Below are positions 20,218-20,595 of a stretch of 64,000 nucleotides of DNA, one piece after another. Below the pieces are notes generated by a model, which saw nothing but the letters and a program-made list of their open reading frames with translations, did not search any database and was not told where the DNA came from. Every line of letters begins with the position of its first letter. Position 1 is the stretch's first letter. Both the position numbers and the translations under genes were made by a program. This stretch comes from Escherichia coli (lineage in GTDB: Bacteria > Pseudomonadota > Gammaproteobacteria > Enterobacterales > Enterobacteriaceae), in NCBI RefSeq assembly GCF_045037415.1, contig NZ_CP173438.1. One strand, given 5' to 3'.

Positions 20218-20322
20218 GGATATTTATCAGGATTTATCGGTTTCTGAGCCCTGGATATGTTTATCAGTTCCAGCCTGTTGCCTCAGGCTGCTAACAGGTC
20301 AATACAATCATGAGGATTATTT

Positions 20323-20595
20323 ATGGACAATAACACCATTTCTCTACAGGAGTTGCTCGACAGCATTTCCAGGCTTCGGGAAGACGTGAATACCCTTACC
20401 GTCGCCTTCTCATATCTGGCATTCTCAATTCCAAGGGAACAGATGCAATCAACGCTGGCATCAATCCAGTTTGAATCATGCAATCCCAAATGGTCTCAGG
20501 AACAACAAGACTCTTTCAGGCGGCTTGCTGTATTACTGGATGAAAAATATGCTGGTAAAATTACCATTTCGGCGGACTCTTCAGAGAACCCGTAA
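20323..20595 (+). CDS. Hypothetical 90-aa protein encoded antisense inside the lysis cassette
   Basis: ATG with SD GAGGA 7 nt upstream; candidate promoter TTGCCT...TACAAT; convergent with and overlapping the 3' end of the YdfR-like gene by ~35 bp. Confidence 0.5.
   Translation: MDNNTISLQELLDSISRLREDVNTLTVAFSYLAFSIPREQMQSTLASIQFESCNPKWSQEQQDSFRRLAVLLDEKYAGKITISADSSENP

What the first reader, a model, noticed from the sequence alone, without database searches (positions are those of the whole stretch)
20218..20595. Antisense-oriented 90-aa ORF with its own promoter inserted inside the lysis cassette
The 340 bp between the YdfR-like gene and the endolysin is non-coding on the late (minus) strand, but the plus strand has a well-formed ORF (20323-20595) with SD GAGGA and an upstream promoter-like TTGCCT...TACAAT. 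It is convergent with late transcription and overlaps the 3' end of the YdfR-like gene by about 35 bp. A gene transcribed against the holin-endolysin operon could be expressed in the lysogen and act on lysis or on incoming phage, through its antisense transcript or through the protein.
Basis: seen in the sequence. Interest (0 to 1): 0.55.

Follow-up and report, generated by a model that had tools for sequence, protein, structure and literature searches.

The report
Reverse-oriented accessory gene in prophage lysis cassette
The 90-codon reading frame that runs against the phage lysis genes is a real, conserved protein-coding gene of unknown function. It is already annotated as hypothetical in about a fifth of complete E. 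coli genomes, so it is a typical phage accessory gene ("moron") and not a new kind of element.

Summary
The ORF at 20323-20595 (+) is real and protein-coding. It matches PHROG 2411 (unknown function) end to end, and RefSeq annotates it as hypothetical protein WP_000369850.1. About 1130 of 5426 complete E. coli genomes carry it. Eight divergent copies give dN/dS of 0.10-0.39, with differences concentrated at third codon positions.

The predicted product is a 10 kDa acidic three-helix protein with no membrane segment. It has no informative sequence or fold relative.

Relatives sit in four different slots of phage late operons in four genera, always antisense to the late genes. In each, the ORF converges on a late-strand gene that ends in a YdfR-type tail. 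Intact copies also survive beside iha, on an IncF plasmid, and between dinI and bssS.

Comparison points instead to a conserved upstream -10 (TATGTT, 20256-20261) followed by a hairpin leader.

Cassettes without the gene carry a deletion scar, so "inserted" is probably the wrong direction.

Selection acts on the protein, which argues against a purely antisense role. Expression in the lysogen and the function itself remain untested.

The parts
20323..20595 (+). Gene A: 90-aa ORF, PHROG 2411 / RefSeq WP_000369850.1, hypothetical protein. Predicted core is three helices (residues 8-35, 38-51, 59-77). The tail at 81-90 is predicted disordered and overlaps ydfR.
20312..20316 (+). Shine-Dalgarno GAGGA, 6 nt before the ATG. 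Conserved as (G/A)AGGA in the E. coli-type copies.
20256..20261 (+). Best candidate -10 element, TATGTT, preceded by CCCTGG (20249-20254). A TAnnnT hexamer lies 6-7 nt before the conserved leader start in all lineages examined. The -35 is weak (TTTATC, 20233-20238). Inferred, not shown.
20268..20290 (+). Conserved leader start TTCCAGCC, followed by the 5'-proximal hairpin CAGCCTG-TTGCCT-CAGGCTG (20271-20290). The equivalent hairpin in distant relatives shows compensatory changes, and its G.U pairs form only on the + strand.
20303..20308 (+). It is conserved as TAnnAT within the E. coli-type copies, but it lies 14 nt from the ATG and 3 nt from the SD. A possible secondary promoter at best.
20638..20664 (+). 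Terminator-like hairpin GCGCCTC-N9-GGGGCGC followed by TTTT, 43 nt after the stop of A and inside the ydfR coding sequence. It is kept as a perfect stem in the iha-linked copy, where ydfR has decayed. It falls below the scan's T-run threshold.
20561..20905 (-). Late-strand partner B: YdfR family protein (DUF1327, PHROG 406) ending in the tail ...GKLPGIITGSLKSPPKW. It converges on A with a 35-bp overlap.
19684..20217 (-). Endolysin R (Phage_lysozyme), the next late gene. Its upstream 105 nt are shared with the regulatory region of A.
20910..21125 (-). Class II holin, the first gene of the lysis cassette.

Best explanation
Gene A is an independent, protein-coding accessory gene (a 'moron') of a lambdoid prophage. 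It is carried inside the late lysis operon in the opposite orientation.

Most likely mechanism:
- It is transcribed from its own weak sigma-70 promoter (-10 TATGTT at 20256-20261). The predicted start is near 20266-20272, giving a leader of about 55 nt.
- The leader begins with a hairpin and contains the SD.
- Transcription probably ends at a hairpin inside ydfR.

The functional product is the protein: a small, acidic, soluble three-helix protein. It most plausibly acts by binding another protein of the host or of a phage. It is made when the late operon is silent, that is, in the lysogen.

Shown: the gene is real, is under purifying selection as a protein, is mobile between contexts, and always lies antisense to late genes.
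Inferred: the promoter, the start site, the terminator, the timing of expression, and action by protein binding. The target is unknown.
For: Protein family and conservation:
- Full-length match to PHROG 2411 (E 1e-58).
- RefSeq annotates the ORF.
- It is present in about 1130 of 5426 complete E. coli genomes and in 173 IMG/VR contigs. The ORF is open (88-90 aa) in all 80 contigs fetched: 79 of 90 aa, one of 88 aa.
- dN/dS is 0.10-0.39 with dS up to saturation.
- Pairwise differences by codon position are 563/499/1118, and the other five frames carry stops.

Mobility and context:
- GC is 44.5%, against 53-55% in the flanking lysis genes.
- Intact copies survive where the neighbouring phage genes have decayed (iha locus) or are absent (IncF plasmid, dinI-bssS locus).
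- The antisense placement recurs in four late-operon slots in Escherichia, Citrobacter, Klebsiella and Atlantibacter.

Regulatory region:
- The upstream blocks and the TAnnnT hexamer keep a fixed distance from the leader start.
- The leader hairpin is 95% paired, and 3 of 8 pairs change on both sides.

Protein properties:
- The AF2 model has pLDDT 81.7 and three helices.
- pI is 4.5 and there is no hydrophobic segment.
Against: - There are no direct expression data. Literature searches found nothing on this family.
- The candidate promoter matches only 7 of 12 consensus positions.
- The terminator-like hairpin is weak (z -1.3 to -2.2).
- A minority of alleles are frameshifted, and most Stx-phage cassettes have lost the gene. 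It is therefore dispensable for the phage.
- Fold and sequence searches give no clue to a target.
- The leader covariation rests on only five sequences.
Confidence: 0.6

Rival explanations
1. Antisense or transcription-interference regulator of the lysis cassette. Transcription of A runs into the 3' end of ydfR and collides with late transcription. This would lower leaky or early expression of ydfR and the endolysin, or trigger cleavage of the late mRNA. The geometry resembles lambda OOP RNA acting on cII. Under this reading the protein is secondary.
For: - In every phage context, A converges on and overlaps a late-strand gene at their 3' ends: 35, 14, 20, 7, 17 and 20 nt.
- The terminator-like hairpin lies inside ydfR.
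- Alleles without A still keep the promoter-like block pointing into ydfR.
Against: - Selection is clearly on the protein of A.
- A persists intact where its partner and the lysis genes are decayed or absent.
- The late genes flanking A differ between hosts (tail genes, holin, Rz), so no specific lysis target is conserved.
Confidence: 0.12
2. A is the dedicated protein partner of the YdfR-type late protein B, acting as its inhibitor, antidote or chaperone. The two would form a two-gene module. A, made in the lysogen, would neutralise leaky B. K-12 YdfR is reported to bind the RNase E catalytic domain.
For: - The late-strand partner is an intact gene next to A in all but one phage lineage examined (a remnant of its tail in the P22-like phage), and its end carries a tail motif I-x-G-S/D-L-K/R-x-P-P in most of them (it is absent from the 85-aa partner in L020/L021).
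- In the overlap, the tail of B is conserved while the tail of A varies, so B is a real, constrained protein.
- K-12 YdfR residues 1-72 bind the RNase E N-terminal domain and co-purify RNA (PMC13232886).
Against: - Each gene is common without the other. About 4200 genomes match the ydfR/endolysin flanks used as query, but only about 1050 of them carry A.
- A occurs alone at the iha, plasmid, Sodalis and dinI-bssS loci.
- The linkage could instead arise because the terminator of A lies in the tail-coding DNA of B, so the two travel together.
Confidence: 0.15
3. Spurious or decaying ORF: an open frame in non-coding spacer DNA of the lysis cassette with no function.
For: - There is no functional annotation anywhere.
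- Some alleles are frameshifted.
- Most Stx phages lack it.
Against: - The frame stays open over saturated synonymous divergence, with dN/dS well below 1.
- Distant homologues at 25-40% identity exist in other genera.
- The ORF is open (88-90 aa) in all 80 viral contigs fetched.
- It stays intact while its neighbours decay.
Confidence: 0.03

Closest known systems
Phage 'morons' in the sense of Hendrix and Juhala (for example lambda bor and lom, HK97 gp15)
   Same: - An extra gene present in some but not all related phages, lying between conserved late genes.
- Lower GC than its surroundings.
- Its own putative promoter and terminator.
- Opposite in orientation to, or independent of, late transcription.
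- In Klebsiella phages the homologue sits after Rz, between the lysis and packaging genes, a slot that from memory corresponds to lambda bor. In Atlantibacter it sits in the tail module.
   Different: - Bor, Lom and HK97 gp15 are envelope or membrane proteins. This protein is soluble and acidic, with no signal peptide or membrane segment.
- It has no sequence or fold similarity to any of them.
- Its expression in the lysogen has not been shown.
Lambda OOP RNA / cII (convergent 3'-end antisense control)
   Same: A transcript made against a phage gene overlaps that gene's 3' end. Here A overlaps ydfR by 35 bp, and its likely terminator lies further inside ydfR.
   Different: - OOP is a short non-coding RNA. 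Here the transcript encodes a protein under purifying selection.
- The gene survives without the overlapped partner.
PHROG 2411 / 'Ybl58' hypothetical proteins (RefSeq WP_000369850.1, WP_000370546.1, WP_000370415.1, WP_000976359.1)
   Same: The window protein is a full-length member (E 1e-58, 1-90 of 90) and is identical to WP_000369850.1.
   Different: Nothing differs. The family has no known function, so membership names the gene but does not explain it.

Membership tests
PHROG 2411 (phage protein family of unknown function) | Full-length, significant match to the family HMM | tested here: met
   E 1.1e-58, residues 1-90 on profile positions 1-90 of 90. Distant homologues also hit only this family.
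Phage moron | Present in some and absent from other closely related phages, between conserved genes | tested here: met
   The ydfR-endolysin junction carries A in the window, Chlobot and REL606. It lacks A in YYZ-2008, most Stx phages and K-12 Qin.
Phage moron | Nucleotide composition different from the flanking genes | tested here: met
   GC is 44.5% for A and 41% for the leader, against 55% for the endolysin and 54% for the holin.
Phage moron | Own promoter and terminator flanking the gene | tested here: inconclusive
   There is a conserved TAnnnT hexamer with a fixed distance to the leader start. There is also a weak terminator-like hairpin. The consensus scan is at chance level, and no transcript data exist.
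Phage moron | Expressed from the prophage in the lysogen | not testable with these tools
   This needs RNA-seq, TSS mapping or proteomics of a lysogen.
Known anti-phage defence systems (PADLOC-DB 2.0) | Match to a defence-system protein model | tested here: not met
   No families matched at E <= 1.
Bor/Lom-type lysogenic-conversion envelope proteins | Signal peptide, lipobox or membrane segment | tested here: not met
   The maximum 19-residue Kyte-Doolittle hydropathy is 0.75 and the pI is 4.5. There is no Pfam or NCBIfam match.
Type I toxin-antitoxin / antisense-RNA loci | A small hydrophobic toxin peptide paired with a non-coding antisense RNA | tested here: not met
   A is a hydrophilic 90-aa protein under selection. 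No Rfam family is found in 19500-21300.
Holin / antiholin or other lysis-cassette proteins | Co-oriented with the late operon, with a membrane or lysis-protein domain | tested here: not met
   A is on the opposite strand and has no lysis-category PHROG hit. Homologues also occur outside lysis cassettes.

The most novel reading that the evidence does not exclude
A and the YdfR-type late protein form a conserved convergent two-gene module with a structured leader RNA. The lysogen-expressed A, through its protein or its 3' antisense end, would hold in check a late protein that binds RNase E. That would make the pair a new switch linking prophage state to host RNA decay, lysis timing or abortive infection.
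Probability: 0.1. Interest if true: 0.65.

Novelty: new member of a known kind. Interest (0 to 1): 0.33.

Why it matters
The gene sits in roughly one in five complete E. coli genomes, including ST131 and B strains, as well as in active phages and a virulence island. No function is assigned to it or to its neighbour YdfR. Knowing what a lysogen-expressed protein placed inside the lysis cassette does could reveal a new superinfection, defence or host-modulation factor. As it stands, the finding is an ordinary uncharacterised moron. The useful outputs are a corrected promoter and leader model, the recurring pairing with a YdfR-type tail, and the evidence for a deletion scar.

Tried and rejected
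Searches that gave nothing informative:
- Pfam on the protein and on 17 family members: no hit.
- NCBIfam: only a chance 13.7-bit hit to Mip.
- PADLOC: nothing.
- PDB sequence profile search: nothing below E 1.6.
- Foldseek against PDB with the first, weaker model (pLDDT 68): E > 1.
- Foldseek against AFDB50: only the family's own uncharacterised members.
- Rfam over 19500-21300: nothing relevant.
- Literature searches for ybl58, the four WP accessions, DUF1327, and lysis-cassette morons: nothing on this gene.
- The search for related loci with the divergent alignment failed. With the closer alignment it returned mostly identical copies.

Ideas considered and rejected:
- LexA box upstream of A: CTGT-N15-ACAG in the window and nothing in the dinI-linked copies, so no (reading).
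- Sigma-E or sigma-54 motifs: no consistent match (reading).
- The 3-codon upstream ORF 'MAD' in the loop motif of some relatives: the SD spacing is too short and it is not conserved (reading).
- The minus-strand 68-aa ORF as the real gene: it has stops in most homologues, and the codon-position pattern fits the plus frame.

Full report
**What is there.** The window carries the late operon of a lambdoid prophage on the minus strand. Its genes, in late-transcription order, are:
- Q antiterminator (26564-27385)
- a DNA methyltransferase (24939-25988)
- a SASA-type esterase (21276-23144)
- class II holin (20910-21125)
- YdfR/DUF1327 (20561-20905)
- endolysin (19684-20217)
- Rz spanin, an HNH endonuclease and terminase

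Between ydfR and the endolysin, the plus strand holds an ATG-initiated 90-codon ORF at 20323-20595. GAGGA lies 6 nt upstream of its ATG. Its last 35 nt overlap the 3' end of ydfR. Those parts of the observation are correct.

**Is it a gene?** Yes.
- The protein matches PHROG 2411 (unknown function) over its whole length, E 1e-58.
- It is identical to RefSeq WP_000369850.1, annotated 'hypothetical protein' at the same position in other E. coli genomes.
- DNA similar to the ORF region covers at least 80% of the query in about 1130 of 5426 complete E. coli genomes.
- The ORF is also present in three deposited phages, including the environmental isolate Chlobot and an Stx2k phage.
- 173 IMG/VR contigs encode a relative. 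The ORF is open (88-90 aa) in all 80 that were fetched: 79 of 90 aa, one of 88 aa.
- Eight copies spanning 58-99% protein identity give pairwise dN/dS of 0.10-0.39, while dS reaches saturation.
- Pairwise differences sum to 563, 499 and 1118 at codon positions 1, 2 and 3. The other five frames contain stops in most homologues.
- A profile search of 1.84 billion representative proteins found only 23 clusters. All are small proteins of Enterobacterales, and all are unnamed.
- A minority of alleles are frameshifted.

**Context elsewhere.** The family is mobile, and its placement follows a striking pattern. In every phage context it lies antisense to the late operon:

| Host or element | Position of A |
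|---|---|
| E. coli lambdoid prophages | between ydfR and the endolysin |
| A P22-like E. coli phage | between holin and endolysin; only a remnant of ydfR is left |
| Citrobacter braakii | upstream of the holin |
| Klebsiella | after Rz, between the lysis and packaging genes (from memory, where lambda carries bor) |
| Atlantibacter | between the tail genes equivalent to M and L |

In each phage context, A converges on and overlaps the 3' end of a late-strand gene by 7-35 nt. In most of them the product of that gene ends in a related tail (the 85-aa partner in L020/L021 lacks it):
- ...GIITGSLKSPPKW in the window
- ...KITGSLRATIKL in Citrobacter
- ...RLTGDILIPLES in Klebsiella
- ...QIFGDLKKPPSY in Atlantibacter

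In the overlap, the tail of that partner is conserved while the tail of A varies. K-12 YdfR has a different C-terminus, and the K-12 Qin prophage lacks A.

Intact copies of A also exist outside phages:
- Beside iha, in an island carried by 60 genomes. Decayed remnants of the endolysin start and of the ydfR end still flank it there.
- On an IncF plasmid, after an autotransporter gene.
- Alone in Sodalis.
- Between dinI and bssS on chromosomes of other Enterobacterales.

A gene that stays open while its neighbours decay is under selection for its own product.

**Promoter and leader.**
- The spacer is 19 nt.
- The consensus scan does not report the pair. Such matches are at chance level in this region.
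- TACAAT ends 3 nt before the SD. A conventional start site would therefore exclude the SD from the mRNA.
- TTGCCT is the loop of a hairpin.

Comparison across lineages reveals a different architecture, conserved in blocks:
- ATATCAGG
- about 20 nt later, CCCTGG
- one base later, a TAnnnT hexamer (TATGTT, TATTAT, TATGAT, TACGAT, TAAGTT or TAAGGT)
- 6-7 nt later, TCAGCCC (TCCAGCC in the window)
- immediately after that, a hairpin

In the window these elements are CCCTGG at 20249-20254, TATGTT at 20256-20261, TTCCAGCC at 20268-20275 and the hairpin at 20271-20290. The pattern CCCTGGWTANNNT occurs twice in the 64 kb window, against 0.13 expected.

In the long-leader relatives the hairpin is 95% paired. 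Three of its eight pairs change on both sides, and its G.U pairs form only on the plus strand. Thirteen of 500 shuffles reach the observed score, on five sequences. Three lineages have a second hairpin with unrelated stems and the same loop, GGATGGCTGATTAA.

I therefore infer a weak sigma-70 promoter with a start near 20266-20272 and a structured leader of about 55 nt. TACAAT could still be a secondary promoter, because it is conserved as TAnnAT within the E. coli group.

A terminator-like hairpin at 20638-20660, followed by TTTT, lies inside ydfR. The iha-linked copy keeps it as a perfect stem. It is weak. None of these transcription signals has been verified experimentally.

**Insertion or deletion?** Cassettes without A (YYZ-2008 and most Stx phages) keep CCCTGGATATGTT followed by TCAGGCCAGCGGTGG. 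That stretch aligns with the start of the Atlantibacter-type leader. It then joins the last codons of ydfR through a shared CGGTGG. This looks like a microhomology-mediated deletion of A from an ancestral cassette that contained it. It does not look like an insertion into the window's phage. In the Stx2k phage the mosaic boundary lies at the start codon of the next late gene, so the 105-nt regulatory region travels with A.

**Mechanism.** My best reading, at confidence about 0.6, is this. A is a self-contained moron transcribed against the late operon. It is active as a small soluble protein that binds some host or phage protein. It is made when late genes are silent. The gene's reality and the selection on its protein are shown. 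The promoter, timing and mode of action are inferred, and the target is unknown.

Three rivals remain:
- A 3'-end antisense or transcription-interference role on ydfR and the endolysin (0.12). The recurring convergent overlap favours it. Protein-level selection and the survival of A without its partner count against it.
- A dedicated partnership with the YdfR-type protein (0.15). The linkage is attractive, and a 2026 report found that K-12 YdfR residues 1-72 bind the RNase E catalytic domain (PMC13232886). Against it, each gene is common without the other.
- A non-functional ORF (0.03). The conservation data refute this.

**Novelty and score.** The gene is already annotated as hypothetical and already belongs to a PHROG. 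The kind of element, a reverse-oriented moron in a late operon, is well known. New here are the corrected regulatory model, the recurring pairing with a YdfR-type tail across four genera and four operon positions, the deletion scar, and the fossil cassette beside iha. I rate interest at about 0.33. The gene is common in E. coli but uncharacterised, and this analysis gives no evidence of an unusual mechanism.

Noticed in passing
window 20561-20905 (-); L112 6239-6955; L108 1630-1818; L014 6261-6476; L008 488-721; L009 391-576: The late-strand gene that converges on A ends in a related tail in most phage lineages (I-x-G-S/D-L-K/R-x-P-P-x-x-stop; absent from the 85-aa partner in L020/L021). The tail is attached to very different N-terminal parts: a 70-aa DUF1327 head in E. 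coli, a 238-aa YdfR-like protein in C. braakii, and 61-77 aa coiled-coil proteins elsewhere. K-12 YdfR lacks this tail.
   Followed up: partly
L002 (phage YYZ-2008) 2100-2140, compared with window 20249-20290 and 20571-20580: Lysis cassettes without A retain the promoter-like block and the first 20 nt or so of an Atlantibacter-type leader. This is fused to the last ydfR codons through a shared CGGTGG, which looks like a deletion scar. The retained promoter would now point straight into ydfR.
   Followed up: partly
L007 3900-4400 (E. coli GF60, beside iha; same in SMS-3-5 and F11): A fossil lysis cassette lies next to the adhesin/siderophore receptor gene iha. The endolysin start and the ydfR end are decayed, but A is an intact 90-aa ORF with TATAAT and its terminator hairpin preserved. 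It is found in 60 complete genomes at 99% identity or more.
   Followed up: partly
L014 5940-6003, L020 760-823, L107 5930-6003: A second leader hairpin lies just before the SD of A. Its three stems are unrelated (AAAGAGG/CCTCTTT, ACCGAAG/CTTCGGT, GCGGAG/CTCTGC), but the loop GGATGGCTGATTAA is the same. The E. coli copies keep only a GGCTGCTAAC remnant (window 20286-20295). The function is unknown.
   Followed up: partly
L018 5638-6730, L110 4603-5756: Distant chromosomal homologues of A (25-29% identity) sit between dinI and bssS, co-oriented with them and without a YdfR-type partner. Their flanking genes are core chromosomal genes, not prophage genes.
   Followed up: no
window 21165-21193 (-): A strong intrinsic-terminator-like hairpin (12 pairs plus a T-run) lies on the late strand between the esterase gene and the holin. 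Late transcription presumably reads through it under Q antitermination.
   Followed up: no
window 20249-20254: The conserved CCCTGG block just upstream of the candidate -10 contains a Dcm methylation site (CCWGG). Whether methylation matters is unknown.
   Followed up: no
L010/L011 3589-4123: In the P22-like E. coli phage that carries A without an intact ydfR, a ParE/ParD-like toxin-antitoxin pair lies just downstream of the endolysin on the late strand.
   Followed up: no
L043 1-97: In one IMG/VR copy, unrelated sequence replaces everything upstream of position -30 relative to the ATG of A. This may be a mobile-element insertion or a mosaic joint. It leaves only AACAGGTCAATACAAT and the SD.
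   Followed up: no
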